Positions 1,086 through 42,742 are shown, counted from the stretch's first letter. The stretch is DNA of 64,000 nt from an uncultured Bacteroides sp. (GCA_964535085.1 CAZHSE010000001.1:230956-294955); one strand, 5' to 3'. The notes: generated by a model from the letters alone, not told the origin. Numbers and translations: made by a program.

Positions 1086-1107
1086 AGAGGTGTTTCCGAT
1101 GTTTTAA
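1086..1107 (+). other. SD + Met-Phe-stop mini-ORF in leader
   Basis: AGAGGTG-tttccg-ATG TTT TAA; near-identical copy at 42742-42721 (minus). Confidence 0.5.
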
Positions 1108-1182
1108 AAGTAAAGATTTATATAAAAGCAAAACAGTATAAGATTATTGATTTCAACATAAATATTAAGGAGAAAAATCATT

Positions 1183-2205
1183 ATGAAACTTATAAATAAT
1201 ATTTTAGCCATTTTAATGGGATTAGCTTTGATTTTATCCAGTGGAACAATTACCGCTTTCGCTAATGAAATTAAAAGTAATGATAACAAAATTCTAATTG
1301 AAAATGGTTTTCCAAGTGAACATATAGATGTTTTATCGACGAATCAAAAACAAGAATTGGTTGATGAATTAAAGAATAATCCCACTAATGTTACTATTAC
1401 AACTTCAATTTTAGAAGTAGATAATTTGGTAGAAGTAGAAAATTTTTTGAAATGTACAGATGAAGAACTTGTTAATATGGGTATGGATTTAGATAGTGTA
1501 ATTGAAACAAGGAAAGAATTAAATGGTCTAAATAAAAAGTCACCTGAACAAATATCAAAAGAAAAAAATGTTAGTTTAGCAGAAGCAACATATTATAAAA
1601 AAGCAATAGAAAAAGGGCTTTCAGGCGAGATAAATCAAACATATAAAGAAACTACAAATCCAGTTACTGCATCTGGTTCAATTTCTTCGTCGAAATTATC
1701 ATATTCTCAAACTGTGACACGCAAGTCTCCAGAGCTTCCAAATTATTCTGTATTTCTTTCATATACTTGGGCTTCACCTTTTACTGTAATTGGATTTAAT
1801 GATGAAATTGTTGTTGCATGGGGAGGCGGACTTAACACAAAAAACGAATCTGGATCATCAAGATATTATAACTGTGGAACAAGCTGGGGCTCATATTATG
1901 AAACTAATGATATGACTAAAAAGTACACCCCAAATGCTGGATTAGAATTTATATTTCCACAATCGGTAACAACACCTCAAACCATATCAAATGGTTCACG
2001 AGCACTTGCAAAAACGGGTGGTGCTAGTTTTATATTGTATCAAACTAAAAAGGAAGGTAAAGAAACTAAGATAATATCACATTATTGTCATCGTGTAATA
2101 AAAGTTGGCACTTCAATTGGAATAAGTACTAGTCCAAGCTTATCAATAAATATCGGAAGTGCTTGGGATAAAACCAACCAAGCTAGTAATAACATAGAAT
2201 ACTAA
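1183..2205 (+). CDS. Secreted hypothetical protein (340 aa)
   Basis: AAGGAG SD; Sec-type signal peptide ending AFA; Ser/Thr/Gly-rich, probably beta-rich C-terminal half; AT-rich. Confidence 0.75.
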   Translation: MKLINNILAILMGLALILSSGTITAFANEIKSNDNKILIENGFPSEHIDVLSTNQKQELVDELKNNPTNVTITTSILEVDNLVEVENFLKCTDEELVNMGMDLDSVIETRKELNGLNKKSPEQISKEKNVSLAEATYYKKAIEKGLSGEINQTYKETTNPVTASGSISSSKLSYSQTVTRKSPELPNYSVFLSYTWASPFTVIGFNDEIVVAWGGGLNTKNESGSSRYYNCGTSWGSYYETNDMTKKYTPNAGLEFIFPQSVTTPQTISNGSRALAKTGGASFILYQTKKEGKETKIISHYCHRVIKVGTSIGISTSPSLSINIGSAWDKTNQASNNIEY

Positions 2206-2237
2206 TGTTTATTATTATATAGTGATATGCATAAAAT

Positions 2238-3296
2238 ATGAAAAAAAAATATTTAGTATTAATTATTTTAATAATTTCTTTATTAGCCCCATCACTTTTT
2301 TTTATAAATAATAAAAATGATAAAGAAAAAGAACTATATCAAGATGATTGGGCAATATATAATTATGGTCAAAAAATTGAAAGCAATAGTGGGAAAGCAG
2401 GTATAGATATAAATATACGACCAATACTCAGTAATATTAGTAGCAAAGATAATGATAATTCTGTTATTGTTGCAGTAGTTGATACAGGTATTGATTTATC
2501 AAATGACATTATTAATCAAAATTTATTTATAAATATTAATGATAAAATTAATAATTGTGATGATGATGAAAATGGATTTATTGATGATTATTATGGTTGG
2601 AATTTTTTTGAAAATAATAACATTATATACGATGATGCAATATATGACTATCATGGAACATATATCGCGGCAACTATATTAAAAATTTCTCCTCATTCAA
2701 GAATTTTACCTGTAAAATTCTTGAATTCTACTTATGGCACAATTGAAGATTCCATTTCTGCAATAAAATACGCTATAGGTAGAGGGGCTAAAGTTGTTAA
2801 TTGCAGTTGGAATTTTAACAATGATAATAAAGAACTGTATGAATTGATTAAATCTCATCCTGAAATACTTTTTATTTGTTCAGCTGGAAATTCAAACATT
2901 GATTTAGACAAAGGTGATCTCTTTCCTTGCAGTTACAATTTAAATAACATAATCACTGTTATGGCTATAGACAGCAAAGGTTTACCATATGATTCAAGCG
3001 GTTATGGTAAAGATAGTGTTGATATTGCAGCACCTGGTGTTAATGTTAAAGTAATTTTACCTGATAACGAAGAAACATTGATAAGTGGTACCTCTGTTGC
3101 AAGTGCATATGTTTCCGGTGTTGCTTCACTCATGCTTTCCGAAAACTCTAATCTAAAGCCTGAAAATATAAAAGAAATTTTAATTAAAAATTCAAATAAA
3201 ATAGCAGGATTGAAAGCAAAGTGCAGATCAGAAGGCATTATTGATGTCAGTGCGAGCTATTTTGCCGCAAAGGAGTATGAGGAGGATAAAAAATGA
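2238..3296 (+). CDS. S8 subtilisin-like serine peptidase, N-terminally anchored or secreted
   Basis: Triad motifs VAVVDTG, YHGTYIA, SGTSVAS; oxyanion SAGN; N-terminal hydrophobic helix. Confidence 0.9.
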   Translation: MKKKYLVLIILIISLLAPSLFFINNKNDKEKELYQDDWAIYNYGQKIESNSGKAGIDINIRPILSNISSKDNDNSVIVAVVDTGIDLSNDIINQNLFININDKINNCDDDENGFIDDYYGWNFFENNNIIYDDAIYDYHGTYIAATILKISPHSRILPVKFLNSTYGTIEDSISAIKYAIGRGAKVVNCSWNFNNDNKELYELIKSHPEILFICSAGNSNIDLDKGDLFPCSYNLNNIITVMAIDSKGLPYDSSGYGKDSVDIAAPGVNVKVILPDNEETLISGTSVASAYVSGVASLMLSENSNLKPENIKEILIKNSNKIAGLKAKCRSEGIIDVSASYFAAKEYEEDKK

Positions 3297-3796
3297 TTAT
3301 AGATATTATACTTATTACATCTTCATTATTATTTTTTGCTGACTTCTTTTTGCTGAATTATCTCTGGTTAAATTTCTGCGATAAACTGTATGATATATTT
3401 TACGTTTTACTGCTTATATTACTTATTCTTACTGCTGTTTTCGGTATTATAAAAATCTTTGTTGTTATGTTTAAATCCAAAAGCAAAATAAGTATAAGAA
3501 TTATTTCGATTGGATTAATAATCGCTTTGTTTGTTGGAGCGGGAACTACGCTGTCTTCAATGACAAAATCAAAATATGTGGGAAGTTTTACGTATATCAG
3601 TGAAAAAGAGACTGATGAAAACGATAATTGTTTTTTAGTGATAATGGATTCGGAGCTGAATAAATATATCAGAGTTAAATGCGATAAAGATACTTATAAT
3701 AAAATTGAAACAGGAGAAAACAATCTTTATACCGTCGAATACAGAATCGGCTGTTTAAACAATGATTACGGAGTTTTGGAAAATATATCAAAATAA
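3293..3796 (+). CDS. Membrane protein (about 3 TM helices plus C-terminal soluble domain)
   Basis: ATGA overlap with peptidase stop; hydrophobic N-terminal half. Confidence 0.7.
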   Translation: MIIDIILITSSLLFFADFFLLNYLWLNFCDKLYDIFYVLLLILLILTAVFGIIKIFVVMFKSKSKISIRIISIGLIIALFVGAGTTLSSMTKSKYVGSFTYISEKETDENDNCFLVIMDSELNKYIRVKCDKDTYNKIETGENNLYTVEYRIGCLNNDYGVLENISK

Positions 3797-3811
3797 GTAC
3801 TTGATTAACTG

Positions 3812-3854
3812 AAATACACATTCTCGCTTTTATTATCGGGAATGTGTATTTTTT
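3812..3854 (+). terminator. Intrinsic terminator closing cassette 1
   Basis: aaatacacattctcg / cgggaatgtgtattt stem plus T run. Confidence 0.75.
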
Positions 3855-3930
3855 GTTTACAATTTATACACTTGTATATTGAAGAGTTTTATGTTAAAAT
3901 ATTTTATACAAACTGATAAAATTATACAAA

Positions 3931-4539
3931 GTGAGAAAAAATATGCCGAAGAATAACAAACTCGGTTGCTCATACGCAACTCAGCAAAAACTTGCCAAAT
4001 CTCTTAAAGAGTTAATGGAAAATGAGTCTTTTGAAAAACTTTCAGTTTCAGATATAACTTCCAACTGCAATTTGCACAGGCAAACTTTTTATTATCATTT
4101 TGAAGATAAATATGAACTTCTTGACTGGATAGTTTATGAAGAGCTGATTTTGCCGATTATAACTGAATTTAAAATTGACAATATTTATGAGAAGTTTTAT
4201 AATATTTTTGAAACTATGAGCAGAGAAAGAAAGTTTTATCAGAATTCTCTGAAGATTAATACGGAAGAGCTTTCAAGGTATATAAGCAAAATTGCTCATG
4301 AATATGTAAGACCTCTTGTAAAAAGCGTTAAAGCAGAAAATTTAATTAAGTTTTCCGATGAAAATAATGACAGCATTTTTTCGGAATTTTTATGCTATGG
4401 CATTTCGGGAGTAATAATTTCCTGGGTGCAAAGAGGAATGAAAGAGTCGCCGCAGGAAATGACAATGTGCATTAAAAGTGTTATTTCAGGCGTGAAAATC
4501 TTAATTACACAGAGAAAAAGTTTTGAGGATAGAATATGA
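3931..4539 (+). CDS. TetR/AcrR family transcriptional regulator (DhaS-like)
   Basis: N-terminal HTH (FEKLSVSDITSNCNLHRQTFYYHFEDKYELL). Confidence 0.9.
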   Translation: MRKNMPKNNKLGCSYATQQKLAKSLKELMENESFEKLSVSDITSNCNLHRQTFYYHFEDKYELLDWIVYEELILPIITEFKIDNIYEKFYNIFETMSRERKFYQNSLKINTEELSRYISKIAHEYVRPLVKSVKAENLIKFSDENNDSIFSEFLCYGISGVIISWVQRGMKESPQEMTMCIKSVISGVKILITQRKSFEDRI

Positions 4540-5951
4540 AAAAAAGAATTTTAATCAGAGCAAGTGTCTCTCCGTTTGAAGTCCACAAGCCCATTGATGT
4601 TATCTGCCAGAAGGTTATCGGAAATAATACAGGTAATCTTCTGTTTGCCTACAGTATGACAAGAACTCTTTATACCGAAGATACGGAAATTGATTTTCTT
4701 GCCGATAAAGAGGTCGCTCACGGTAAAGTAAAGGCAGAATATATTAATGAAAATTACGATTATCTTGTTCTGCCTATGGCAAACTCATTCAGAAAGCAGT
4801 TTATGCAGTGTATGGGTATGTGGACAAGTATAATTGAAAAATTGACTATTCCCGTTGTCATAACGGGTATCGGTATTCAGATGCCTTATGAGCCAGATGT
4901 TACCGAAAAACATGTTTATGACGAATGTGCCAAAAAGTTTATTACGGCAGTTCTTAATCATTCTGCATCTGTAGGTGTAAGAGGTACTATCACCGAGAGT
5001 TATCTTAAACATTTAGGCTTCGGAGGTAACGATATTGATGTTACAGGCTGTCCTTCCTTTGCAATGCTTGGTCCGGGACTTACCGTCAGAGAGAAAAAGC
5101 CGCTTACAGCCGAATCATCTGTCTGCGTAACAGGCTCTGTATCAAATCCCGTAAACTTTAAAGAATTTATGATAAGAAACAGGGAAGTACTGCCGAATTA
5201 TTATTTTATGCCTCAGTTTGTTGATGATTTAAGACTGATGTATCTCGGCATACCTCTTCCTATTACAAAGGATTCTCAGGTGCTTTATCCTCATTTAATC
5301 AATGATGAGGTCTTTGTAAATGACAAGGCGCGTTTCTTTATAAATTTCCCCAGTATTCTTGAATTTAATAAAGATATTGATTTTAACTACGGAACAAGAA
5401 TCCACGGAGCAGTAGGCGGCATTCTTGCTGGCGTGCCCAGCTTTTTGTTCCCGACAGATGCAAGAATCAGAGAGCTTGCGGAATATCATAATGTTCCTAA
5501 TATGCCTGCAAGTGCAGTTGATGAAGATACAAATATCTTTGATATTTATGAAAAGACGGATTTCTCTCAGGTTAATAACGGTCACGAGGAACGATTCTGG
5601 CATTTTGTTGATTTTCTTAATAACAACGGACTGCCGCATATTTATCAGGATAAAACCAGAACAACTGTTCCTTTTGATGAAAAAATCAGGAATATTGAAT
5701 TTGAAGGACCTATCCATTCTCTTACAACCTGTTCCAAGGAAGAAATGATTGAACGTATCGCTTTCGGAAATGGACTTCTCATGAAAGAGCAGAAAGCCAC
5801 CTGTGACATGCATGAAGAAGAAGCTAAAAAAATGAAGGCCGATATTAAAGCATTAAAGGTTAAGGAAAAGAAGCTTAACTGGTATGAGCGTTCATCTTCT
5901 GCAAGGATTGCCGCCTCAAGAGTAAAGCATAAAATAATTAAGGACAAATAA
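4536..5951 (+). CDS. Polysaccharide pyruvyl transferase family protein
   Basis: GNNTGNLLF, VGVRG, GCPS and GTRIHG motifs; ATGA overlap with TetR. Confidence 0.8.
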   Translation: MKKRILIRASVSPFEVHKPIDVICQKVIGNNTGNLLFAYSMTRTLYTEDTEIDFLADKEVAHGKVKAEYINENYDYLVLPMANSFRKQFMQCMGMWTSIIEKLTIPVVITGIGIQMPYEPDVTEKHVYDECAKKFITAVLNHSASVGVRGTITESYLKHLGFGGNDIDVTGCPSFAMLGPGLTVREKKPLTAESSVCVTGSVSNPVNFKEFMIRNREVLPNYYFMPQFVDDLRLMYLGIPLPITKDSQVLYPHLINDEVFVNDKARFFINFPSILEFNKDIDFNYGTRIHGAVGGILAGVPSFLFPTDARIRELAEYHNVPNMPASAVDEDTNIFDIYEKTDFSQVNNGHEERFWHFVDFLNNNGLPHIYQDKTRTTVPFDEKIRNIEFEGPIHSLTTCSKEEMIERIAFGNGLLMKEQKATCDMHEEEAKKMKADIKALKVKEKKLNWYERSSSARIAASRVKHKIIKDK

Positions 5952-5958
5952 ATATATG

Positions 5959-5999
5959 AAAAACAGGTGTTGTTCGTAATGAACAGCACCTGCTTTTTT
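5959..5999. terminator. Bidirectional terminator between convergent genes
   Basis: aaaaacaggtgttgttc-gtaat-gaacagcacctgcttttt. Confidence 0.75.
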
Positions 6000-7401
6000 A
6001 TTTCGTATTCTTTTGATTTTTTATGGGTTTTTGGTGAACTACATTTTCAATTTCACGTTCTGCCGCTTCAATTAGGCTTTGGGTGTCGTGAATTACCGTT
6101 TTATCATAGCAGGCGCTGATTGCCTGTGTGAGACCTAAAAGTATGAAGAGAAGAATAATCTGCTTCGGTGAATTAAAGATATAATCTGTCAGACCGAAGA
6201 TAAGATACAGCAGCATTGATGTAAATACGCAGAAAACCAAAGTGAATTTCTTACCGTTATTTGCGTTAATTTCAAGGAGCTTTCCAAATGCAGATATCAG
6301 CACGATAAACAGAATGACAACTCCGATAATTCCAAGCTCCATCCAGGTTTCTATAACAAAGTTATGACCGTGAGGTTTGTCAAGATTATACTGGCTTATC
6401 AGGACAAGTCCAGTTGATTCACAGCCAAAACCCAGCCCGGCAATAAATGTGTTTACGTGAGTCGTTATGTAGTCGATAAGACTGCCCCAAATCTGAAAAT
6501 GCGCTGCCGAAGATTTTTTCGCTTCTTCGCCTCCGCCTCTGACTTTAAATATAATTCCGTACCTCGTAAGCAAAGACGGAATTATAACGCATACGGTTGG
6601 TATGAATATCTGCAAAAGAGGTTTCCAGTACTGTTTAATAAGAATAACAAACATAAACAGCCAGCCTGCTATAGCTATAACACAGCCTGCACGTGTGAGT
6701 GTTGCACTGATTCCTCCGCTGATTAACACATTTGCCAAAAAGTACAGTATCTTGTGTTTTTTGCCTTTTGTGTTAAGAAAAAGGTAAATTGATATCGGAT
6801 AAACAATCAGTAAATATGTTGCAAGCAGATTCGGATTTGAAAAGAAACCGCTTGCTCTTGAATCCCACCACAATGTTGTATCAATATCAAAAGGAAGCCT
6901 GCTGTAAACAAACTTGTCGAAAGGTTTATAAAAAGGTGTTACAAAAACCTGAGACTTTTTGATATAGCCATATCTGTAAAGTGTATATGAACATATCTGA
7001 AGTATTGCAACAATTCCGTTAAAAGAGCCGGAGGCAGTCATTGTAGCAAGAATTCTGTCAATTTTTTTTCTCGTTCTGCACAGGTTATAAATCATAACCT
7101 CGACTAAAAACATTCCCCACCACAGCATAGCCGTTGCAAATGTTGTAAATTTTGTGTCGGACCATAATGTGCTTAAAACCGAAAAAGCCATAAAGACCAT
7201 CATCAATTTTCCGATAGTGCCGACCTTTGCTTTTTTACCTTCTCTTGTCCACTGACGTTTAAAAACAATGAATCCTATAAAAAGAATAAAAGGACTGACA
7301 TACTCCGGAAGTATAGGGAAAAGAAAAATAATTGCCAAGAGCCAGTAACCGCCGGGGTTACTTCGGTATTTTTCTTTAAAGCTCAGTATTGCTTCTTTCA
7401 T
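5998..7401 (-). CDS. O-antigen ligase (Wzy_C) family membrane protein
   Basis: Multi-TM; RASGFFSNPNLLA, TLTRAG, GLGFG and HGHN..IE..MELGIIG motifs. Confidence 0.85.
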   Translation of the reverse strand: MKEAILSFKEKYRSNPGGYWLLAIIFLFPILPEYVSPFILFIGFIVFKRQWTREGKKAKVGTIGKLMMVFMAFSVLSTLWSDTKFTTFATAMLWWGMFLVEVMIYNLCRTRKKIDRILATMTASGSFNGIVAILQICSYTLYRYGYIKKSQVFVTPFYKPFDKFVYSRLPFDIDTTLWWDSRASGFFSNPNLLATYLLIVYPISIYLFLNTKGKKHKILYFLANVLISGGISATLTRAGCVIAIAGWLFMFVILIKQYWKPLLQIFIPTVCVIIPSLLTRYGIIFKVRGGGEEAKKSSAAHFQIWGSLIDYITTHVNTFIAGLGFGCESTGLVLISQYNLDKPHGHNFVIETWMELGIIGVVILFIVLISAFGKLLEINANNGKKFTLVFCVFTSMLLYLIFGLTDYIFNSPKQIILLFILLGLTQAISACYDKTVIHDTQSLIEAAEREIENVVHQKPIKNQKNTK

Positions 7402-7610
7402 AAAAATACTTTAGCGCAGAATGCGCATCCTCCAAATTTGATTTTCAATACTATCTAATATATTTTTATACGTTTATAGAAAATGTAACATATATAATAC
7501 ACCTATCTATCAATTTTTGCAAGTATAATAATTTTTCGGATGATTTGGAGCGAAATGCACAGTTCATAACTGATTAATAGAAAATTTATATTATGCTTTT
7601 AATTATTTGG

Positions 7611-7639
7611 TTGCATTAATTTAAACATTATAGTATAAT
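7611..7639 (+). promoter_or_regulatory. Sigma-A promoter of PPIase 1
   Basis: TTGCAT-17-TATAAT. Confidence 0.65.
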
Positions 7640-7774
7640 TTATTAGTATTTATCTGCTTAGAATGATATAAGTGTTTATTTTGAAGCAGAATATTTATTC
7701 GCTTTACGCCTTGTATTGCTACACCAGGGCGGATTATTTTTATATTTTGTAGCGGAAAGGCAATGTGATTTTGT

Positions 7775-11674: not shown

Positions 11675-11680
11675 TAATGC

Positions 11681-14890: not shown

Positions 14891-14967
14891 GGGCCATTAG
14901 CTCAGTTGGTCAGAGCCACCGGCTCATAACCGGTCGGTCCGGGGTTCGAGTCCCTGATGGCCCACCA
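14891..14967 (+). tRNA. tRNA-Ile2 (CAT, lysidine type)
   Basis: Cloverleaf with encoded CCA; CAT anticodon; body resembles Ile2 rather than elongator or initiator Met. Confidence 0.85.
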
Positions 14968-14975
14968 TATATTAT

Positions 14976-15052
14976 AGGGGTATAGTGTTCAACGGTTAGC
15001 ACGATGGTCTCCAAAACCACAAGTCAGGGTTCGAATCCTTGTACCCCTGCCA
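14976..15052 (+). tRNA. tRNA-Trp (CCA)
   Basis: AGGGGTA/TACCCCT acceptor stem; CTCCAAA loop; TTCGAAT T-loop; encoded CCA. Confidence 0.92.
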
Positions 15053-32479: not shown

Positions 32480-32501
32480 ACAATAATTAAAGTATTTAAT
32501 T

Positions 32502-34220: not shown

Positions 34221-34249
34221 TTGACAATGATAGAAAATAATTATAAAAT
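34221..34249 (+). promoter_or_regulatory. Sigma-A promoter
   Basis: TTGACA-17-TAAAAT. Confidence 0.7.
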
Positions 34250-34286
34250 AACTGAGTAAGTTATTTTTTGAAAGGGGTACAGTTTT

Positions 34287-35213: not shown

Positions 35214-35223
35214 TAAACTCTTT

Positions 35224-35255
35224 GAGAAGCGATTTTTTAATCGCTTCTCTTTTTT
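35224..35255 (+). terminator. Intrinsic terminator
   Basis: gagaagcgatt-tttt-aatcgcttctc plus T run. Confidence 0.85.
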
Positions 35256-35304
35256 CTTGACCTGATGCTTGTGTTTTGATATAATGATTATTAGGTGATG
35301 AATA

Positions 35305-35892
35305 ATGGATAATAATACTGACATTGTTTCAAATAGAATTAGTAAAAAGAATAAATTGAGTAAAAATACTAAGGCAGTAATAATAATTTTAACCGTTGTT
35401 GCCGTAGTTGGAGTAATTATTGCAGTTTGTGCAGCTAATAAAACGGCACTTACTTCAGAGCTTACATATGCATTTATGCCGAAAGTTATTGACACAAGCG
35501 ATTATGATTCTAACTTGGATTTAGTTTTATATGTTGAAAAGAACAAGGATTTTGATGCCAAAAAAGATGCGAAAGAACCTTTGAAGGCATTCAAATATTA
35601 CTATTATGATGACAACGAAGAAAAGGTTTCTCTCAATTATGATGACGTGGTTTTCGAGGGTACGGATAATGAAATGATGGCCTGTGCCCAGTTTTATTAT
35701 GAAGCCGCCGAAGGCCTGAGCAGTTTTCTTAGAGTTGTTAAAATTATTGCAGCGGTGTTGGCGGTATTGCTTGTTATAGGCGGTTTGGTATTGTGGTTTA
35801 TTTTGTGGTCCAAAAAGTACGATAAAGAAAAAGAAGCCTATAATCAAAAGGTTAATCAGTCAGGCAAAAGCAAAAATAATAAGAAGAAATAA
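35305..35892 (+). CDS. Hypothetical membrane protein (2 TM flanking a soluble loop)
   Basis: Own promoter TTGACC-17-TATAAT; AGGTGA SD; two hydrophobic helices. Confidence 0.75.
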   Translation: MDNNTDIVSNRISKKNKLSKNTKAVIIILTVVAVVGVIIAVCAANKTALTSELTYAFMPKVIDTSDYDSNLDLVLYVEKNKDFDAKKDAKEPLKAFKYYYYDDNEEKVSLNYDDVVFEGTDNEMMACAQFYYEAAEGLSSFLRVVKIIAAVLAVLLVIGGLVLWFILWSKKYDKEKEAYNQKVNQSGKSKNNKKK

Positions 35893-35970
35893 CAGTCGAG
35901 AGCAGGCTTTTTGCTTGCTCTTAACTTTACTTTTAAATAATACTTAAACATTTTACAAGAGGTAAATTTT

Positions 35971-38043
35971 ATGAGTTATGATATGCTTTTTTCGCCTATG
36001 AAAATAGGAAATGTTGAAGTTAAAAACAGAGTTGTTATGGCACCTATGTGTATGGGCTTCGGGCAGTATAACGGTTGTGCAACTGAAACAATGATGGACT
36101 ATTATGAAGAACGTGCTAAAGGCGGAGTAGGTCTCATTTTTACTGAAATTACACGCGTAAACGACGTTACAGGTGCTTCCTCATTTGGCCAGCTCGGTAT
36201 GAGTCATGATTATCAGATTCCCGCACTTAAGGAAATGGCTGACAGAATACATAAGCACGGCTGTAAGATTATGGTTGAGCTTCATCATCCGGGAAGACAG
36301 AATCTCGGATTAATGATAGGTACTGTTCCTATTTGCAATGTAGGAAGCAGGATTATGGGAGATTTGTATACAAAGATTCTCACAGGCTGTGTTATTCCTC
36401 CCGGAAAGAAGCTTCAGGATAAAGATATTGTTCCGCGCGTAGTTGCTCCGAGCAAATGCGAAAAAAGTAAAATGAGTGAAAGTGTCAACAGACCGCTTTC
36501 CAATAAAGGCGTAAAGAAACTTATATGCCAGTTTATTGAAGGTGCTGTCAGAGTGCAGAAAGCAGGATGTGACGGAGTTGAGCTTCATGCCGCTCACGGA
36601 TATTTGATTCAGCAGTTTTTGTCTCCTAATACTAATCATCGTACAGATGAGTACGGAGGAAGTCTGGAGAACAGAATGAGATTTCTCCTTGAGATTATCA
36701 GAGGAATAAGAAAAAACTGCGGTAAAGATTTTCCTATAGTAGTTCGTCTTTCGGTTGATGAAATGTACAGCAGGATAGGCAAACCCCAAAAGGGTTACAA
36801 TCTTGACGAAGGTCTCAGAATGGCAAAAATTCTCAGCGATGAGGGAATAGATGCAATAGATGTTTCTTCTGCCACTTATGATACCTTTAACTACTGGCTT
36901 GAACCCACAACCTTTGATTGCGGATGGAGAAAGTATCTTGCAGAAGAAGTTAAAAAGGTTGTCGATGTTCCGGTAATTGCGGCAAATCTTATTCGTTCAC
37001 CTCAGCAGGCTGAGAAACAGCTTGAGGACGGTATTCAGGATTTCGTAGCTCTCGGAAGACCTCTTATCGCCGATCCACACTGGGTTGAAAAAGTCGAAAA
37101 GGGAAATGAGAATTTAATTAAGAGATGCGTCGGTTGTCTTTATTGCTTTGAAAGTATGATGCATAATGCTTATAACTACGACCACGGAAAATGCTCTGTA
37201 AATCCGTTTGTCGGCAGGGAAAAGACTACCTTTGCCAAAAACGGGAACGGAAGAAAAGCCGTAATTATCGGTGCAGGTTCGGCAGGTCTTACTGCCGCTG
37301 AGCTTCTTGCTGACAGAGGATTTAATGTTACTGTTCTTGAAAAAGAGAATAATGCGGGCGGTCAGTTAAATCTTGCCAGCAAACCGCCTCATAAGGAAAA
37401 ACTTAACTGGGTTTGTACCGATTTGCTTAGCAATGTACTTAATAAAAATGTTGAGGTCAAGTTTAATACAAAGGCTGATAAAGCTCTTATTGACAGTATG
37501 AAGCCTGATATTGTTATTAATGCAACAGGAGGAAATGCTATTCATCCAAAGGCCTTTGCGGGTGAAAATGTTTCAACTGTTACTGAAATTCTTGACGGTA
37601 CGGTTAAACTTGAAAATAAAAGGGTTGCCGTTATCGGTTCGGGTATGACAGGACTTGAAACAAGTGAGCTTCTTGTTTCACAGGGCAACAGGGTAACTAT
37701 TGTTGAAATGGCTGATGATATCGCTCCGGGTGCATGGTTTCAGCATGTTGATGATGCTATGCCGAAGCTGAATGAAGCAGAAACCGAATTTCTCACAGGT
37801 CATAAGCTGCTTGCTGTTAGACCGAATGGTATTGAGCTTGAAAAACTCATCAGCGGTACAAAGATTTTTGTTGAGGCTGATTATGTAGTTTTGTCACTCG
37901 GCGTAAGACCCGATACAGCTTTATTTGATGAAATTAAAGACTCAAAAGATTACAAAGTGTATAACATAGGTGACAGCGTTAAAATAGGCAGAATTGCAAA
38001 TGCCACCGAATCTGCTTATCAGCTTGTTTCACAGATTAATTAG
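35971..38043 (+). CDS. NADH:flavin oxidoreductase (Old Yellow Enzyme + Fe-S + FAD domains)
   Basis: NRVVMAPM, ELHAAHGYLIQQFLSP, RTDEYGGSLENR, CVGCLYC..CSVNP and IGAGSAG motifs. Confidence 0.92.
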   Translation: MSYDMLFSPMKIGNVEVKNRVVMAPMCMGFGQYNGCATETMMDYYEERAKGGVGLIFTEITRVNDVTGASSFGQLGMSHDYQIPALKEMADRIHKHGCKIMVELHHPGRQNLGLMIGTVPICNVGSRIMGDLYTKILTGCVIPPGKKLQDKDIVPRVVAPSKCEKSKMSESVNRPLSNKGVKKLICQFIEGAVRVQKAGCDGVELHAAHGYLIQQFLSPNTNHRTDEYGGSLENRMRFLLEIIRGIRKNCGKDFPIVVRLSVDEMYSRIGKPQKGYNLDEGLRMAKILSDEGIDAIDVSSATYDTFNYWLEPTTFDCGWRKYLAEEVKKVVDVPVIAANLIRSPQQAEKQLEDGIQDFVALGRPLIADPHWVEKVEKGNENLIKRCVGCLYCFESMMHNAYNYDHGKCSVNPFVGREKTTFAKNGNGRKAVIIGAGSAGLTAAELLADRGFNVTVLEKENNAGGQLNLASKPPHKEKLNWVCTDLLSNVLNKNVEVKFNTKADKALIDSMKPDIVINATGGNAIHPKAFAGENVSTVTEILDGTVKLENKRVAVIGSGMTGLETSELLVSQGNRVTIVEMADDIAPGAWFQHVDDAMPKLNEAETEFLTGHKLLAVRPNGIELEKLISGTKIFVEADYVVLSLGVRPDTALFDEIKDSKDYKVYNIGDSVKIGRIANATESAYQLVSQIN

Positions 38044-38058
38044 TTTTGAGAGGTTTTT

Positions 38059-39018
38059 ATGTTTTCGCCCAGAGAGAGCTTAAGAAAAAGATTAGATGAT
38101 TTAAATGAAAAAATCAGCGACAGTCTTGATTTTGATTTCAGTGCTGTAAGCAGAAATATCAATACTCTTGATGAATTTAACAATGAGATTTATTATAAGT
38201 TTTTAAGCGGAAGAAAGATTTATTTCAGGGGAGAAAGGACGAACAGCCGTTCGAGGCATCTTCTTCCCACAATGCTCAGAAATTCCGATATTCTTTTTTC
38301 AAATAACGACCTGGGAATTGTACACATTGATGCTGAATATATTTTCAGATTCTATTCTTCACTTGGCAGTTTTGTTGATGTGTTTCATAATACAATGGGC
38401 ATGGCTGACAGTGAACATCTTTATGATATCTGCGCTTTTGCGCAGCATTACTGCCATTTTTCGCCGCTTATTGATTTTTCAAAAAGTATATATCCTGCGC
38501 TTTCATTTGCTCTTAAAGACAGAAAAGAATATGACGAAGATATAGTTTTATATGTAGTTGAGCTCAAGGACGATAAGGATTATACTACCGATATAAACGT
38601 CGCTAATAGGTGGCTCAGTGAACTTGACGTTTATGCAAGCTGTTTTGATGAAGAAAATATAAGGACTGCCGTTAGAGAAATGCTCGAAAGCAGAAAAGTA
38701 CCTCAGGGTGATGAATTTAAAATTCACCTTGACCGTATGAGCTCAAGACCTGTTCCTACTGCAAAGCTCATTGATGTTCCGACAAATACACGTATGCGTT
38801 TTCAGCAGGGTGTCTTTCTGATGCTCAATAATTTTCAGCTTTTTAATGTCTCGTATTTTACTAAAAATATCCGTGACCATTTTTATATTACCAAGTATGT
38901 AATCAGCAAGGATATTTGTATCTCACTTCTTGATTTAATTGAGAAAGAAGCCCCGTGGTATTCTTATAAATATTTGACAGACGTTGAATCTGCATTTAAA
39001 ATAGCTATTGAAAGTTAA
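38059..39018 (+). CDS. FRG domain-containing protein
   Basis: YFRGE, AQHY...PLIDFS...ALSFA and RMRFQQGVF motifs. Confidence 0.8.
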   Translation: MFSPRESLRKRLDDLNEKISDSLDFDFSAVSRNINTLDEFNNEIYYKFLSGRKIYFRGERTNSRSRHLLPTMLRNSDILFSNNDLGIVHIDAEYIFRFYSSLGSFVDVFHNTMGMADSEHLYDICAFAQHYCHFSPLIDFSKSIYPALSFALKDRKEYDEDIVLYVVELKDDKDYTTDINVANRWLSELDVYASCFDEENIRTAVREMLESRKVPQGDEFKIHLDRMSSRPVPTAKLIDVPTNTRMRFQQGVFLMLNNFQLFNVSYFTKNIRDHFYITKYVISKDICISLLDLIEKEAPWYSYKYLTDVESAFKIAIES

Positions 39019-39021
39019 TAT

Positions 39022-39064
39022 AAAAAAGGCGTTGATCTTACAGAATAAGACCGATGCCTTTTTT
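39022..39064. terminator. Bidirectional terminator at left edge of cassette 2
   Basis: aaaaaaggcgttgatctta-cagaa-taagaccgatgcctttttt. Confidence 0.7.
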
Positions 39065-39188
39065 CGTTTTAAAATGCTTTTTTATTTAAAGTGTTTTGAT
39101 ATGCTTCATAGTAATTTCTCTTATCTAAAAATAAAGTAAACCTTATAAGGACGAAAACGGCGTTACAAGATATGCTGCTTATTAAACA

Positions 39189-39839
39189 CTATTGCAGATG
39201 ATTTTCTGTTTGTGAGATTATCTTCCCTTCAGAAATTTCAATAATTTCATCGCAGAGTAGAGAAAGATCCTCCTTGTTATGACTGGCGATTATAATAAGA
39301 GTGCCGTTATCTTTTGCATTAAGCAAAAGCTTGTGCACATCGGCAATGGTTTTTTCATCCAATGCATTTGTCGGTTCATCTAAAAGCATAAGCTTCGGAT
39401 TTTCCATTATTGCCTGCGCAATATTCAGCTTTTGTTTCATTCCGAGAGAATATGTTTTTACTTTCTTTTTGTCATTTGGATCAAGCCCGACAGAAATCAA
39501 AGTCTGCTTTATATCAGAGTCGTCTGTTTTTTTATTGATTTTTGCAAGCATTTTTAAATTATCAAAACCGCTGTATTCGGAAAGTAATGTCATATTCTCT
39601 ATTATTATTCCGACGCTTTCCGGAAATTCAATATCTTTTCCGACTGTTTTAGAGTCTATACAAACCTCTCCGTCTGTCGGCAAAATCAAGCCGCATATTG
39701 CTCTGAGAAGCATTGTTTTACCACTGCCGTTTCTTCCGTGAAGACCGTATATTTTCCCACTTTCAAATTCTAAATTTATATTATCAAGTATTCTCTTTTT
39801 TTTGATTTCTTTGCAATATGATTTTACTTCTATTTTCAT
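39189..39839 (-). CDS. ABC transporter ATP-binding protein
   Basis: GRNGSGKT, YSLGMKQK and LLDEPTN motifs. Confidence 0.92.
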   Translation of the reverse strand: MKIEVKSYCKEIKKKRILDNINLEFESGKIYGLHGRNGSGKTMLLRAICGLILPTDGEVCIDSKTVGKDIEFPESVGIIIENMTLLSEYSGFDNLKMLAKINKKTDDSDIKQTLISVGLDPNDKKKVKTYSLGMKQKLNIAQAIMENPKLMLLDEPTNALDEKTIADVHKLLLNAKDNGTLIIIASHNKEDLSLLCDEIIEISEGKIISQTENHLQ

Positions 39840-39842
39840 TTT

Positions 39843-40556
39843 TTACTCCTTTTGTAATATATCTTTTTTATGTATAAATACGAATGATAGAATAATCAGT
39901 ATTATATCTATCAAAAAAATAACAATTAACGGAATAAATATGTTTTTGCTTATTATTTCAGTTCTTGTGAAGCTTAAATAATTAATGAGATTAAATTTCA
40001 AAAAGTACATCATCAATTTTGAATCAGCTGTACCGTCAAGGTATTTTGCATATGCAAAGCTGCCTAGTATATTAAAAACAATATAGGATAAAGAAATTAT
40101 CAGAAAAGCAAAATTTTTTGTTAAATGCAACTCAATATTAAATTGAAACAGCATTAAACAGAATGACACAATAATTCCGTAAAGCAAATATATATATGTT
40201 TTTTTAAAATCAACGCTGCTGTAAAATATAAAATTAAAAAGAGATATAATTGCTGTTTGGACACTGTTGTACAGTATCGTTATTACAGCTGTTTTAATGA
40301 TTTCAATTTTCATTGCAGCACTTCTGGATTTTAAACGGGTTAACCTTACAATATTTTCATTATTATATAGGCAGCCGCTTCGTGCGTTTGTTAACAGTGA
40401 CAGAGTTACAAAGCTGACGGAAGAGAAAATAAGCGAGAGTATTTCAAAATTCATCGGCATACCGTAATATTGCTCGTCTAAACCGCTGTGAGCCTGCATT
40501 ACAGAGCATAAAAAAACAATGAATGCAGCAATAACAGATAATATCTTATTTTTCAT
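39843..40556 (-). CDS. Multi-pass membrane protein (putative ABC permease or immunity subunit)
   Basis: About 6 hydrophobic segments; coupled to neighbours; AT-rich. Confidence 0.7.
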   Translation of the reverse strand: MKNKILSVIAAFIVFLCSVMQAHSGLDEQYYGMPMNFEILSLIFSSVSFVTLSLLTNARSGCLYNNENIVRLTRLKSRSAAMKIEIIKTAVITILYNSVQTAIISLFNFIFYSSVDFKKTYIYLLYGIIVSFCLMLFQFNIELHLTKNFAFLIISLSYIVFNILGSFAYAKYLDGTADSKLMMYFLKFNLINYLSFTRTEIISKNIFIPLIVIFLIDIILIILSFVFIHKKDILQKE

Positions 40557-41262
40557 TTGTAATTATATCCTTTTTAATAAACAGGATTTTGGACAGAGTT
40601 ACTGCTATAAGTATTAGAATAACGCTCATTGCAGAGTTTATCAAATACGTGGGTGCATTGAATGATCCCGAATAGAGCCATTCATCCAAAAACATAGTGT
40701 AAAGCGCAGGTGTGATTCTTATATTCCAGTATTCCATTGCGGAAAGAACAACGAACAGCGCTGTCGAAATAATTATATATGTTTTTTTAAAACTGCAAAT
40801 TATTCCAATCAGCATTGTATATGTTCCTAAAATTAAAAAATACAGGAAAAGTATAAACACATATAACAGGGAAGCGATAAAAAAATTATGTTCTTTCATT
40901 AAACCGAAATCAACAAAAAGCAAAGCTAATATTATATTGCTTCCCCAAAATTCGGCAGCAGTAAGTAATGAATCAAGAGTAATGCCTATTATTCTCCTGT
41001 TAAGATATTTTATTTTTCCAAGCCTTGTGAGCCTATATACATCCATATTACCGAATAAAGAATAATGACCGATGATAAAAAACGCAGTGTATACAATTCC
41101 AATTAAAAGTATTGCGTTATTGAATCCAAAGGATGGTGCCATAATGTCACAAAACAGTTCATTATCATTTATTTTTTCGTTAAAGGAAATGTATTGGCCG
41201 TTAAATATAAACCACATAACAATAAAAAAGGCAGTTCTTGATAAATTATATTTAAATTGCAT
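40546..41262 (-). CDS. Multi-pass membrane protein (putative ABC permease subunit)
   Basis: About 6 hydrophobic segments; overlaps both neighbours. Confidence 0.7.
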   Translation of the reverse strand: MQFKYNLSRTAFFIVMWFIFNGQYISFNEKINDNELFCDIMAPSFGFNNAILLIGIVYTAFFIIGHYSLFGNMDVYRLTRLGKIKYLNRRIIGITLDSLLTAAEFWGSNIILALLFVDFGLMKEHNFFIASLLYVFILFLYFLILGTYTMLIGIICSFKKTYIIISTALFVVLSAMEYWNIRITPALYTMFLDEWLYSGSFNAPTYLINSAMSVILILIAVTLSKILFIKKDIITNEK

Positions 41263-42037
41263 CTTTTTTCCTCACAAATTTTATGTATGCTCCTATGAGG
41301 GCTGCAGACATAACGGCAAAAACCTCTAAAAAAGCGATTGTTCCGTAGAAATAATCGTATTCTGTAAACGGCTGAATAATCATAGAAATGTCATATTTTG
41401 TTGAATATAATGCCATCCATACCGCAAACGTTAAAATGGACGCAATCTTATTATTGTTAAATATAAAACAGACGCTTTGACAAAAAATTCCGCAAACGCC
41501 CGCTAATGCAAGCGCGCCGAAGAAATACATAAAATATGCAATATAAGGGTGATTTATTGAATAAGCCAAAAATGGTCCGCTGACATGCCCTGTGAGATGT
41601 GCTTGCGCAATATATTCTAATCCGCCAAAACCGCTTTTGCCGTGGTTTATAATACAGGATAAAAGGAAATCTCCCATAAGCGGAGCAGCTGTAACAGCAA
41701 TGCTGAAAACAAACGAGCACAAAATTTTTTTGTAAAAATATTTTTTTCTGCTCATTTTTACAAGATAAATGTTCAAAGCTCCCGTCTTTCTTTCTATGAC
41801 ATATTTATCGGCATAAAGCAGTATGAGAAGCAGCGGTAAAAGCCAGAATATCATTACAAACGGAATATATATATCTTTTAAATCTGCCAGCAGTGTTGAC
41901 CCCATTGGGTGAATTGAACTGCTTTTTGACATATTAATGTCAGTAATATTTTTTACGATTACTGCAATCCAAAAATAGAGCATAATAAATACTGATTTTT
42001 TGGATTTGATTAATTTGGTAAATTCCTGATTTATCAT
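41252..42037 (-). CDS. Multi-pass membrane protein (ABC-2-like permease, DUF2705-like)
   Basis: Start at ATG 42037 after GAGGT; D..V.ER..G...IYL...SRKKY..KK pattern typical of these permeases. Confidence 0.7.
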   Translation of the reverse strand: MINQEFTKLIKSKKSVFIMLYFWIAVIVKNITDINMSKSSSIHPMGSTLLADLKDIYIPFVMIFWLLPLLLILLYADKYVIERKTGALNIYLVKMSRKKYFYKKILCSFVFSIAVTAAPLMGDFLLSCIINHGKSGFGGLEYIAQAHLTGHVSGPFLAYSINHPYIAYFMYFFGALALAGVCGIFCQSVCFIFNNNKIASILTFAVWMALYSTKYDISMIIQPFTEYDYFYGTIAFLEVFAVMSAALIGAYIKFVRKKDAI

Positions 42038-42050
42038 ATCGACCTCATAA

Positions 42051-42086
42051 TATCTGTACAGATAATTTGATTTTATCTGTACAGAT
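42051..42086. repeat. Two copies of palindrome atctgtacagat, 23 bp apart
   Basis: 42052-42063 (extends to 14 bp, 42051-42064) and 42075-42086. Confidence 0.85.
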
Positions 42087-42120
42087 TTTTGTTTTAATTT
42101 ATAATGTGATTGGTATCGTA

Positions 42121-42621
42121 TTAATATGACTGAGTTTTCCACTCTCCCTGAATACGATAACTTTTGTCTGTTTTATTATTATTTTTTGCAGCAATCCATA
42201 CATTACCCGGGCTGGCGGATTGATATGCGTCAAAGCTTACCCAGCCGGTTCCCTGTGCAACCGGAAACCTTTGAGATCCCCATGTAGTTTCATCAAGAGC
42301 GAGTGCAAATTTCGCTATTGAACCTTTGCCTTCTTCAGACTCGTTCAAACAAACCCTCCATTGATTTGAAGTATTATCTGTAGAACGTCTTCTTTTACTT
42401 TCATTATTATGTCCGGTAACGCAATTTGCTTTAAGATAAAAGTCAAAACTGTAATTTTGCACTGCTGCAGATGACATAATAGGTATTGTAAGCGAAAACA
42501 TTAAAACAAAAGCAATCAGTAATGTTGTCAGTTTTCTTCTATACATGTTTAAAGATTTATTTTTATTCTTCATAGTTATAATTTGTATGATATAGTAGAT
42601 AACTAAATCATACCCTTTCAT
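42121..42621 (-). CDS. Small secreted protein, DUF2712-like
   Basis: Signal peptide; R.R.T....N.W.V.L..SEEGKG, V.QG, KNNN and Y.I.GEW pattern recalled for DUF2712; exact start uncertain. Confidence 0.65.
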   Translation of the reverse strand: MKGYDLVIYYIIQIITMKNKNKSLNMYRRKLTTLLIAFVLMFSLTIPIMSSAAVQNYSFDFYLKANCVTGHNNESKRRRSTDNTSNQWRVCLNESEEGKGSIAKFALALDETTWGSQRFPVAQGTGWVSFDAYQSASPGNVWIAAKNNNKTDKSYRIQGEWKTQSY

Positions 42622-42652
42622 AATATTTGTGCTTGTTTCACATTATTGCAAA

Positions 42653-42699
42653 AACATATCAAAGAGAAATAAGCGCAACGAATGAAGCTTTGATATGTT
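42653..42699 (-). terminator. Hairpin (12-bp perfect stem, 23-nt loop) in the leader of the DUF2712-like gene
   Basis: aacatatcaaag 42653-64 / ctttgatatgtt 42688-99; short U run on minus strand. Confidence 0.5.
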
Positions 42700-42720
42700 A
42701 ATTATGTTAAAAAGAAAAAA

Positions 42721-42742
42721 TCAAAACACCGGAAACACCTCT
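42721..42742 (-). other. SD + (f)Met-Phe-stop mini-ORF in leader, second copy
   Basis: AGAGGTG-tttccg-GTG TTT TGA. Confidence 0.5.

What the first reader, a model, noticed from the sequence alone, without database searches (positions are those of the whole stretch)
1086..42742. Conserved leader element encoding SD + Met-Phe-stop in both cassettes
Seen: AGAGGTGTTTCCG-ATG-TTT-TAA (1086-1107, +) and AGAGGTGTTTCCG-GTG-TTT-TGA (42742-42721, -). The first 20 nt match at 19 positions, in leaders that are otherwise unalignable. Both differences over the 22 nt keep a start codon (ATG/GTG) and a stop codon (TAA/TGA) at canonical 6-nt spacing from a strong SD. Each copy lies downstream of an ECF-like promoter and 75-100 nt upstream of a secreted-protein gene. 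Inference: a conserved dipeptide uORF acting as a ribosome-loading, attenuation or mRNA-stabilising device. The alternative is a GTGTTT-N3-RTGTTT direct-repeat protein-binding site.
Basis: partly seen in the sequence, partly recalled or inferred. Interest (0 to 1): 0.7.

Follow-up and report, generated by a model that had tools for sequence, protein, structure and literature searches.

The report
Orphan strong ribosome site, tiny leader ORF
A 21-base block found in front of several secreted-protein genes in one genus of gut Clostridia is an unusually strong ribosome-binding site with a start codon and an almost immediate stop, most likely a ribosome-docking device in the mRNA leader of a kind already known from a few single cases.

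Summary
Both 22-mers sit where stated, and 0 of 100 shuffles give two matches. A third copy lies elsewhere in the same genome. About 30 homologous copies occur in roughly 30 of 145 genomes of the genus (Eubacterium sp. CAG:251 group) and in no other genus scanned.

The conserved unit is ATGAAAGAGGTGTTTCCG+ATG (-18 to +2). It pairs with almost the whole 16S 3' tail (GGAUCACCUCCUUUCUA) at -16.9 kcal/mol, stronger than over 99% of gene ribosome sites in this genome.

- **Start codon:** kept in 28 of 30 distinct copies (ATG, GTG or TTG).
- **Second codon:** varies freely (TTT, GTT, ATT, TAT, TAC, AAT, GCT), so Met-Phe is not conserved.
- **Stop at codon 3:** present in 18 of 28 copies against 9.5% background, but lost about 9 times independently. 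Those ORFs then run 3-18 codons.

The direct-repeat DNA-site alternative is refuted. No conserved terminator was found, and no covarying pairing with the main ribosome site.

Best reading (about 0.55): an orphan translation-initiation site with a mini-ORF that holds a ribosome in the AU-rich leader. It would act in cis as an mRNA stabiliser or expression enhancer, as STAB-SD and the LEE1, LEE4 and axe-txe minigenes do. I rate it a new member of a known kind.

The parts
1081..1101 (+). Copy 1, conserved initiation block TTGAAAGAGGTGTTTCCGATG. Extended SD GAAAGAGGTG is 1083-1092, spacer TTTCCG 1093-1098, start ATG 1099-1101.
   Evidence: Predicted duplex with the 16S 3' tail is -16.9 kcal/mol.
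1099..1107 (+). Copy 1 mini-ORF: ATG TTT TAA (Met-Phe-stop).
1037..1067 (+). Copy 1 promoter-like TTCACA-N17-GATATAGT, about 15 nt upstream of the block. It lies inside a 130-nt stretch (940-1069) that is paralogous to the region upstream of the ECF sigma gene (44495-44660, - strand).
   Evidence: local alignment score 77, against a maximum of 31 in 200 shuffles. Promoter function is inferred only.
1183..2205 (+). Downstream gene of copy 1: a 340-aa protein with a signal peptide and its own SD (AAGGAG, 1167-1172). An S8 peptidase gene follows (2238-3296).
42727..42747 (-). Copy 2, conserved initiation block TGATAAGAGGTGTTTCCGGTG. SD core GAGGTG is 42741-42736, spacer TTTCCG 42735-42730, start GTG 42729-42727.
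   Evidence: Predicted duplex with the 16S tail is -14.7 kcal/mol.
42721..42729 (-). Copy 2 mini-ORF: GTG TTT TGA.
42754..42787 (-). Copy 2, two small AU-rich hairpins or palindromes upstream of the SD: GAGAAAATATTTTCTC (42787-42772) and TTAATAAAGCTTTATTAA (42771-42754).
   Evidence: on 20 homologues: 87% of cells paired against 84.4% in shuffles (2 of 500 reach it) and 47-63% when partners are slid. Four pairs of helix 2 change on both sides. Helix 1 uses many G-U pairs. Support is modest.
42793..42821 (-). Copy 2, conserved promoter-like module TTCACA (42821-42816) ... TGACACTATA (42802-42793). The genus consensus is TGTTCACATTTTTC-N8-TGACACTATA. An alternative sigma-A-like reading is ATGACA-17-TATTTT (42803-42775).
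   Evidence: The promoter type and the transcription start are unresolved.
42121..42621 (-). Downstream gene of copy 2: a DUF2712 secreted protein, first gene of a DUF2712 / membrane-protein / ABC-ATPase cassette (down to 39189). The true start is uncertain (42621, 42573 or 42546) and no SD is recognisable.
43361..44508 (-). ECF-type sigma factor (43990-44508) and DUF4367 anti-sigma (43361-43993), upstream of copy 2. This is context and is not shown to drive the element.

Best explanation
The element is a portable 'orphan' translation-initiation region in the 5' leader of secreted-protein operons.

Anatomy: an extended Shine-Dalgarno sequence complementary to nearly the whole single-stranded 3' tail of 16S rRNA, then a start codon 6 nt downstream, then an ORF that ends almost at once (modally after one sense codon).

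Proposed mechanism (inferred): a 30S or 70S ribosome binds very tightly near the 5' end of an AU-rich leader. Because the stop is reached while the SD:anti-SD helix is probably still intact, the ribosome dwells there or re-initiates in place. The parked ribosome acts in cis. It shields the leader from RNase J 5'-exonuclease and from endonuclease entry, and so raises expression of the gene 45-105 nt downstream. This is how STAB-SD and the LEE4 and axe-txe mini-ORFs are reported to work.

Shown: the conservation pattern, the strength of the SD, the retention of the start codon, the shortness of the ORF, and the presence of RNase J in this genome.

Inferred: ribosome occupancy, the position relative to the transcription start, and any effect on stability or expression.
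For: 1. The block -18 to +2 is the most conserved part of about 30 homologous leaders. The SD core shows 0-2 parsimony changes per site, against 8-13 at flanking sites. The sequence after +9 cannot be aligned between lineages.
2. A start-type codon is kept in 28 of 30 distinct copies as ATG, GTG or TTG. Start function was lost only twice in six codon changes. The background frequency of start-like triplets in the same leaders is 3.7%.
3. The predicted duplex with the genus 16S tail GGAUCACCUCCUUUCUA is -16.9 kcal/mol. It uses UGAAA + GAGGUG + UCC. It is stronger than the best candidate SD of 99.3% of 1338 long ORFs in this genome. This also explains why the 'spacer' TTTCC is conserved.
4. The same 15-mer, GAAAGAGGTGTTTCT, is the real ribosome-binding site of the SCIFF peptide gene in several genomes of the genus. 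It is therefore a working initiation region in these organisms.
5. The ORF has exactly 2 codons in 18 of 28 copies and 3 or fewer in 22 of 28. Background values are 9.5% and 28%. Stops occur as TAA, TGA and TAG, and the second codon varies freely.
6. The module is independent of its surroundings. Copy 1 carries it behind a different promoter region and without the hairpins. In G358 it sits 29 nt after the stop codon of the upstream gene.
7. The main genes usually have their own SD 43-105 nt downstream, in mixed reading frames. Direct coupling or occlusion is therefore unlikely.
8. An RNase J gene is present in this genome (E = 2.9e-34).
9. Precedents. STAB-SD binds 30S and blocks RNase J1 (PMC4113751). 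Strong SDs and 5' roadblocks stabilise Bacillus mRNAs (PMC3997798, PMC5737220). The two-codon mini-ORFs of LEE1 and axe-txe and the LEE4 mini-ORF ribosome site act in cis, the latter two by protecting the mRNA (PMC8708949).
Against: - There is no expression, ribosome-footprint or transcription-start data.
- The stop at codon 3 was lost about 9 times independently. Site +8 changes as fast as neutral sites, so 'exactly two codons' is not required.
- T(+5), T(+6) and A(+7) are more conserved than a stop codon alone would explain.
- The copies are related by descent, so the raw counts overstate independence.
- Changes at the start position are mostly A-to-G transitions, which are also the commonest neutral change.
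- Copy 2's downstream gene lacks an SD, which does not fit a pure stabiliser model.
- In the classical STAB-SD no start codon is needed, so that model alone does not explain why the start is conserved here.
Confidence: 0.55

Rival explanations
1. Ribosome-dependent unmasking of the main ribosome-binding site. The conserved UUUCC just upstream of the mini-ORF start pairs with the GGAG(A) of the downstream gene's SD. A ribosome on the mini-ORF melts this pairing and switches on translation of the main gene.
For: In the minimum-energy folds of most leaders the UUUCC segment pairs with the main SD. In about half the leaders the spacer window is among the best partners of the main ribosome site.
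Against: Cognate and non-cognate pairs have the same mean duplex energy (-4.9 against -4.8 kcal/mol), so there is no covariation. Any UUCC is complementary to any SD. The enclosed loop is 45-100 nt. TTTCC is equally well explained by pairing with the 16S tail, and the same spacer occurs at a real gene.
Confidence: 0.12
2. A translation-stress or antibiotic sensor. A very short leader ORF on which ribosomes stall, as in the erm, cat and ABC-F leaders, controls a downstream attenuator or hairpin.
For: Very short leader ORFs are known to work as such sensors (background knowledge; erm and cat are summarised in PMC8708949). Copy 2's leader has an 11-bp inverted repeat followed by TTTTGC (42698-42654), which looks like a terminator.
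Against: That hairpin is not conserved in other copies. No terminator passed the scan. No conserved alternative structures were found. The downstream genes are secreted proteins and transporters, not ribosome-protection genes.
Confidence: 0.08
3. A relic with no function of its own. A strong initiation region, perhaps copied from a real gene such as the SCIFF gene, was carried along with a duplicated promoter-and-leader module. The tiny ORF is simply what AT-rich sequence gives.
For: The same 15-mer serves a real gene. The stop is lost repeatedly. Some lineages lost the start, the stop and the UCC together (ATA ATT AAA with spacer TTTGAA).
Against: The block is far more conserved than both the promoter part and the downstream leader of the same copies. 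It persists behind unrelated upstream sequences (copy 1, G358). The start is retained in 28 of 30 copies.
Confidence: 0.1
4. A DNA-level protein-binding site. This is either the reader's direct repeat GTGTTT-N3-RTGTTT or the weak dyad GAAA-N6-TTTC.
For: The block is conserved at every position, including positions that would be 'wobble' in any reading frame. GAAA...TTTC is a short inverted repeat.
Against: The second half of the direct repeat is not conserved. The core is an exact SD, and a start codon at 6-nt spacing is retained as ATG, GTG or TTG. The block always has the same orientation relative to the downstream gene.
Confidence: 0.05
5. The real ORF is longer. Either it is an 8-codon ORF from the in-frame ATG at -18 (M-K-E-V-F-P-M-X-stop), or in copy 1 it is the 43-codon ORF from ATG 1068.
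For: A start-type codon (ATG, GTG or TTG) stands at -18 in 25 of 30 copies. The G/A variation at -1 would be synonymous (CCG/CCA) in that frame.
Against: There is no SD upstream of -18. Copy 2 has TGA in frame at -18, and G202, G307 and G378 lack a start there. There is no synonymous variation elsewhere in the block. The 43-codon frame of copy 1 is closed in the other copies (TAA just before AGA in G202).
Confidence: 0.05

Closest known systems
Two-codon leader minigenes: EHEC LEE1 leader mini-ORF and the axe-txe mg2 mini-ORF (PMC8708949)
   Same: An SD, a start, one sense codon and a stop lie in the leader, tens of nucleotides upstream of the regulated gene. The reported action is in cis and depends on translation or ribosome binding. 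For mg2, protection of the mRNA is proposed.
   Different: Those are single, experimentally tested cases studied in E. coli. This one is a multi-copy family of about 30 copies conserved across one Clostridia genus. Its SD is complementary to almost the whole 16S tail, its ORF length is not strictly fixed, and it has no experimental data. For mg2 the frame and distance to the main gene matter. Here the frames are mixed and the distances are 43-105 nt.
STAB-SD of Bacillus thuringiensis cry3A and related 5' stabilisers of Firmicutes (ermC, aprE, hbs; PMC4113751, PMC3997798, PMC5737220)
   Same: A strong SD-like sequence lies far upstream of the gene's own ribosome site in an AU-rich leader of a Firmicute that has RNase J. 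It may be combined with a 5' hairpin, as in aprE.
   Different: STAB-SD does not direct initiation and needs no start codon. Here a start codon at canonical spacing is conserved. The position relative to the 5' end is unknown.
LEE4 six-codon mini-ORF, whose ribosome site protects espADB mRNA from RNase E (summarised in PMC8708949)
   Same: A strong ribosome site with a very short ORF lies in a long AU-rich leader, and occupancy shields the mRNA.
   Different: That case is in a Gram-negative host and concerns RNase E. It is a single locus with a 6-codon ORF.
Bacillus subtilis ycbK dipeptide mini-ORFs (summarised in PMC8708949)
   Same: Dipeptide ORFs in a Firmicute leader.
   Different: Those share the SD of the main gene, lie 5-10 nt from it, and repress it by competition. 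Here the mini-ORF has its own SD and lies at least 43 nt away.

Membership tests
Two-codon leader minigene (LEE1 / axe-txe mg2 type) | SD + start + one sense codon + stop within the 5' leader of a downstream gene | tested here: met
   Both window copies fit, as do 18 of 28 homologues with a start. The other copies have 3-18 codons.
Two-codon leader minigene (LEE1 / axe-txe mg2 type) | The mini-ORF is actually translated or bound by ribosomes | not testable with these tools
Indirect support: the same initiation region serves a real gene, and the predicted SD strength is high.
Two-codon leader minigene (LEE1 / axe-txe mg2 type) | Acts in cis on expression of the downstream gene | not testable with these tools
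   This needs reporter fusions.
STAB-SD type 5' mRNA stabiliser | An SD-like sequence complementary to the 16S 3' end, in the 5' UTR and well upstream of the gene's own ribosome site | tested here: met
   Duplex of -16.9 kcal/mol with GGAUCACCUCCUUUCUA. The main start lies 43-105 nt beyond the mini-ORF stop and has its own SD.
STAB-SD type 5' mRNA stabiliser | Does not direct translation initiation (no start codon required) | tested here: not met
   A start codon at 6-nt spacing is conserved in 28 of 30 copies.
STAB-SD type 5' mRNA stabiliser | Lies close to the 5' end of the stable transcript and blocks RNase J1 | not testable with these tools
   The transcription start is unknown. RNase J is encoded in the genome.
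Leader-peptide attenuators (erm, cat, trpL, ABC-F leaders) | Conserved alternative hairpins or a terminator, or an SD-sequestering helix coupled to the leader ORF | tested here: not met
   No conserved terminator. The pairing between spacer and main SD shows no covariation.
Any Rfam cis-regulatory RNA family | A match to a curated covariance model | tested here: not met
   No hit at gathering score in the window apart from a T-box and tRNAs elsewhere. Around copy 2 only chance-level hits were found (E of 0.9 or more).
   The second unit varies at the positions of codon 2 (TTT, GTT, ATT, TAT, TAC, AAT, GCT).

The most novel reading that the evidence does not exclude
The module is a self-reloading ribosome trap. 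Its near full-length complement to the anti-SD keeps the 30S subunit tethered. The stop codon arrives before the SD helix has to melt, so the ribosome terminates and re-initiates on the spot. This would give a near-permanent roadblock at almost no translational cost. The genus would have spread this portable device, possibly derived from the initiation region of the SCIFF peptide gene, across a set of stress- or quorum-controlled secreted-protein cassettes.
Probability: 0.2. Interest if true: 0.6.

Novelty: new member of a known kind. Interest (0 to 1): 0.42.

Why it matters
Cis-acting mini-ORFs and STAB-SD-like stabilisers are known from a handful of single loci found by experiment. This case offers comparative-genomic evidence that such a device can be a conserved, portable, multi-copy module in uncultured gut Clostridia. 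About 30 diverged copies show which features are constrained (extended SD and start) and which are not (the peptide and the exact stop). That provides a natural mutational series for studying how ribosome docking in leaders controls mRNA fate in Firmicutes. It may also provide a compact expression-enhancing part for clostridial engineering. For annotation, it warns that a perfect ribosome site with a start codon need not mark a gene.

Tried and rejected
- **Family-wide pattern scan** (301 genomes, up to 1 mismatch). Hits were about as many as for the reversed-pattern control and were ordinary gene starts. Only one same-genus hit was homologous.
- **Consensus structure.** RNAalifold on the leaders gave no consensus structure. 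The hairpins I named have only modest support.
- **Anti-SD model for TTTCC.** It shows no covariation.
- **A second promoter inside the element** (TG-N-TTTAAT or TAATAT). Rejected by inspection: the critical -11 A or the spacing is wrong. Sigma-70-like sites were scanned for directly only around the two copies, and they are not above the shuffle level.
- **Weak model hits next to the FtsL and SCIFF genes.** These are real gene starts, not homologues of the element.
- **Linkage to the window's ECF sigma.** Only 8 of about 21 element-bearing genomes have a close orthologue, and 18 genomes have the sigma without the element.
- **Genome-wide search for other 2-codon ORFs behind GAGGTG.** It found only these elements plus two chance TTG sites inside coding sequence.
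- **Scans of genome contigs and metagenome contigs.** They added only same-lineage copies.
- **16S gene.** It is absent from this assembly, so the tail was read from a genome of the same genus.
Full report
**1. Observation**

Allowing 3 mismatches, the 20-mer occurs only at these two sites in the 64-kb window. None of 100 dinucleotide-preserving shuffles gave two matches.

The window is C1:230956-294955 of a 2.03-Mb, 38.6% G+C assembly. A third copy lies on contig C5 (11525, +). It precedes a 398-aa secreted protein, with spoIIGA-sigE a little further downstream. There the ORF reads ATG GCT TAT TTA TTA TAA, so Met-Phe-stop is already broken within the genome. Copies 2 and 3 share about 45 further nucleotides upstream. 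Copy 1 does not.

**2. Distribution**

A scan of 301 genomes of the family with the 16-mer (up to 1 mismatch) gave about as many hits as the reversed-pattern control. Nearly all were ordinary SD+ATG gene starts, and only one hit, in the same genus, was homologous.

I then built a sequence model of the upstream part (promoter-like region, hairpins, SD). It deliberately ends before the start codon (A1, R1). It found the element in 31 of 145 genomes of the genus, often in 2-4 copies. Exact-pattern scans of 185,579 species genomes and of metagenome contigs added only copies from the same lineage. The record titles name Eubacterium sp. CAG:251 and Ruminococcaceae bacterium UBA3323 and UBA7080, and the source includes human-gut contigs. 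The element is therefore restricted to one genus of uncultured gut Clostridia.

**3. Anatomy from about 30 copies**

Anchored on the SD, 31 elements give 30 distinct 48-mers.

- **Conserved block:** -18 to +2, consensus ATGAAAGAGGTGTTTCCG-ATG. The SD core is essentially invariant.
- **Rate of change:** parsimony counts on a tree built from the flanks give 0-2 changes per site in the SD core, 2-4 in the TTTCC spacer, and 8-13 at sites beyond +9. Downstream of +9 the lineages cannot be aligned.
- **Start:** a start-type codon stands at position 0 in 28 of 30 copies (ATG 23, GTG 4, TTG 1). One exception is ATA, in a lineage that also lost the stop and the UCC of the spacer. The other is GCG, in a copy whose SD is degenerate. 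The codon changed at least 6 times, but start function was lost only twice.
- **Codon 2:** the most variable part (TTT, GTT, ATT, TAT, TAC, AAT, GCT).
- **Stop:** at codon 3 in 18 of 28 copies, as TAA, TGA or TAG. The remaining ORFs have 3, 3, 3, 3, 5, 5, 6, 9, 18 and 18 codons.
- **Background:** for random positions in the same leaders, a 2-codon ORF occurs at 9.5% and a start-like triplet at 3.7%.

The stop is only weakly constrained. It was lost or regained about 9 times, and site +8 changes as fast as neutral sites. T(+5), T(+6) and A(+7) are better conserved than a stop codon alone would explain. The firmly conserved feature is therefore SD + spacer + start. 'Exactly two codons' is the modal state, not a requirement.

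**4. Why the 'spacer' is conserved**

This assembly has no 16S gene. In a genome of the same genus the 16S 3' end reads ...GGAUCACCUCCUUUCUA. The block pairs with nearly the whole tail, through UGAAA, GAGGUG and UCC, at a predicted -16.9 kcal/mol. That is stronger than the best candidate SD of 99.3% of 1338 long ORFs in the window's genome. The variants fit this reading. Changes at -6 and -5 fall in the unpaired dinucleotide. C-to-U at -3 keeps a G-U pair. The TTTGAA variants, which lose the UCC pairing, include the lineage that also lost start and stop.

The same 15-mer (GAAAGAGGTGTTTCT, then TTG) is the real ribosome site of the SCIFF peptide gene in several genomes of the genus. It is thus a working, strong initiation region in these organisms. 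Genome-wide, GAGGTG followed by a start codon precedes a real gene in 103 of 154 cases. The only intergenic 2-codon ORFs among the rest are the copies of this element.

**5. Context**

Upstream, most copies carry a conserved module, TGTTCACATTTTTC-N8-TGACACTATA, followed by two small AU-rich hairpins. The hairpins have modest support: 87% of cells paired against 84.4% in shuffles and 47-63% when partners are slid, some double changes, and many G-U pairs. The module can be read as a specialised promoter, or as a sigma-A-like (T/A)TGACA-17-TATTTT promoter. Promoter-like matches around the two copies do not exceed the shuffle level, and I could not place the transcription start.

The initiation block does not depend on this module. 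In copy 1 it sits about 15 nt behind a TTCACA-N17-GATATAGT motif. That motif lies inside a 130-nt stretch paralogous to the region upstream of the window's ECF sigma gene (score 77 against a shuffled maximum of 31). In G358 the block lies 29 nt after the stop codon of the preceding gene.

The downstream genes are diverse. They include 135-150-aa signal-peptide proteins, Amidase_6 proteins, a DUF2712 protein with membrane proteins and an ABC ATPase, and a 340-aa protein followed by an S8 peptidase. The neighbouring regulators differ too: ECF sigma with anti-sigma in some loci, and a LytTR response regulator with a GHKL kinase in another. Close orthologues of the window's sigma occur in only 8 of about 21 element-bearing genomes, and in 18 genomes that lack the element. 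'ECF-like promoter' is therefore not established.

The main genes nearly always have their own AAGGAG-type SD. They start 43-105 nt after the mini-ORF stop, in mixed frames.

**6. Mechanism**

The evidence fits a ribosome-engaging leader element, for these reasons:
- the SD is stronger than almost any gene's;
- the start codon is retained;
- the peptide is irrelevant;
- the ORF ends long before the main ribosome site;
- the leader is AU-rich;
- the organism encodes RNase J.

In Firmicutes, strong SDs and ribosomes parked near the 5' end stabilise long stretches of downstream mRNA. Examples are STAB-SD of cry3A, ermC, aprE and hbs (PMC4113751, PMC3997798, PMC5737220). Two- and six-codon mini-ORFs with strong ribosome sites act in cis on downstream genes in LEE1, LEE4 and axe-txe. 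The latter two are reported to work by shielding the mRNA from endonuclease (PMC8708949).

I therefore propose, at about 0.55, that the element parks a ribosome in the leader and raises mRNA stability and expression. The very short ORF would allow termination while the SD helix is still engaged. That last step is inference.

**7. Rivals**

- **Unmasking of the main ribosome site.** In most minimum-energy folds the UUUCC pairs with the main SD. Cognate and non-cognate pairs are equally stable, so there is no covariation.
- **Stalling sensor or attenuator.** Copy 2 has a terminator-like 11-bp inverted repeat (42698-42654). It is not conserved in other copies, and no terminator passed the scan.
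- **Relic with no function.** Repeated loss of the stop, and one lineage that lost start, stop and UCC together, point this way. The block is nevertheless far more conserved than both of its flanks.
- **DNA direct repeat.** Refuted by the variation in the second unit.
- **Longer ORF from the in-frame ATG at -18.** There is no SD upstream of it, and copy 2 has TGA at -18.
- **Known RNA family.** No Rfam family matches.

**8. Verdict**

It is a conserved orphan initiation site with a tiny ORF. It is not a conserved Met-Phe dipeptide, it is not tied to an ECF promoter, and its stop is not fixed.

The kind is known (leader minigenes, STAB-SD). This is a new, genus-wide, multi-copy member with an exceptionally extended SD. 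Function is untested because no transcript or ribosome data could be reached.

Noticed in passing
window 940-1069 (+) and 44495-44660 (-): The 130 nt upstream of copy 1 are a paralogue of the region upstream of the ECF sigma gene, ending at GGGATATAGTAT (score 77 against a shuffled maximum of 31). In the sigma gene this motif ends 4 nt before the ATG. If GATATA is a -10 box, the sigma mRNA would be leaderless.
   Followed up: partly
own genome, contig C5:11453-11545 (outside the window): This is the third copy of the element, with the full promoter and hairpin module and the ORF MAYLL*. It precedes a 398-aa secreted protein and a 163-aa protein. spoIIGA and pro-sigma-E lie just downstream of those.
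   Followed up: partly
L145, L146, L169 (same-genus genomes): The SCIFF (six-cysteine peptide) gene uses almost the same initiation region, GAAAGAGGTGTTTCT-T-TTG, behind a TTGACA-17-TAAAAT promoter. It is a possible evolutionary source of the orphan module.
   Followed up: no
window 42621-42603 (-): Inside copy 2's leader there is a second, shortened look-alike, ATGAAAGGGT-ATG-ATT-TAG. It resembles the element of genome G347 with 8 nt of the SD and spacer missing. It may be a decayed tandem copy or a chance match.
   Followed up: no
window 42698-42650 (-): An 11-bp perfect inverted repeat, ACATATCAAAG...CTTTGATATGT, has a 23-nt loop and is followed by TTTTGC. [quoted passage not shown] It is not conserved in other copies. 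The DUF2712 gene itself has no recognisable SD.
   Followed up: partly
genome G373, 14 sites, many near contig ends (e.g. L156); also G371 and G365: A repeated palindromic element, GGGGACATTCCTCTGAAAGAGGTGTGTCCCC, matched the search pattern by chance. It looks like a REP- or MITE-like repeat and is unrelated to the leader element.
   Followed up: no
L067 (G315, Eubacterium sp. CAG:251, contig C41): Two elements lie 2.7 kb apart in one cluster behind a LytTR regulator and a GHKL kinase. The first is intact (ATG ATT TAA). The second has lost start, stop and the UCC of the spacer together (ATA ATT AAA, spacer TTTGAA). The same double-loss haplotype recurs in metagenome contigs L230, L244 and L279.
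   Followed up: partly
positions +5 to +7 of the element (window 1104-1106 and 42724-42722): T-T-A is conserved (2-4 changes), while +3, +4 and +8 change 7-9 times. This is more than a stop codon explains, and it remains unexplained.
   Followed up: no
window 62265-62485 (+) and 14891-15046 (+): An ordinary T-box leader and two tRNA genes were found by Rfam. They are unrelated to the finding.
   Followed up: no
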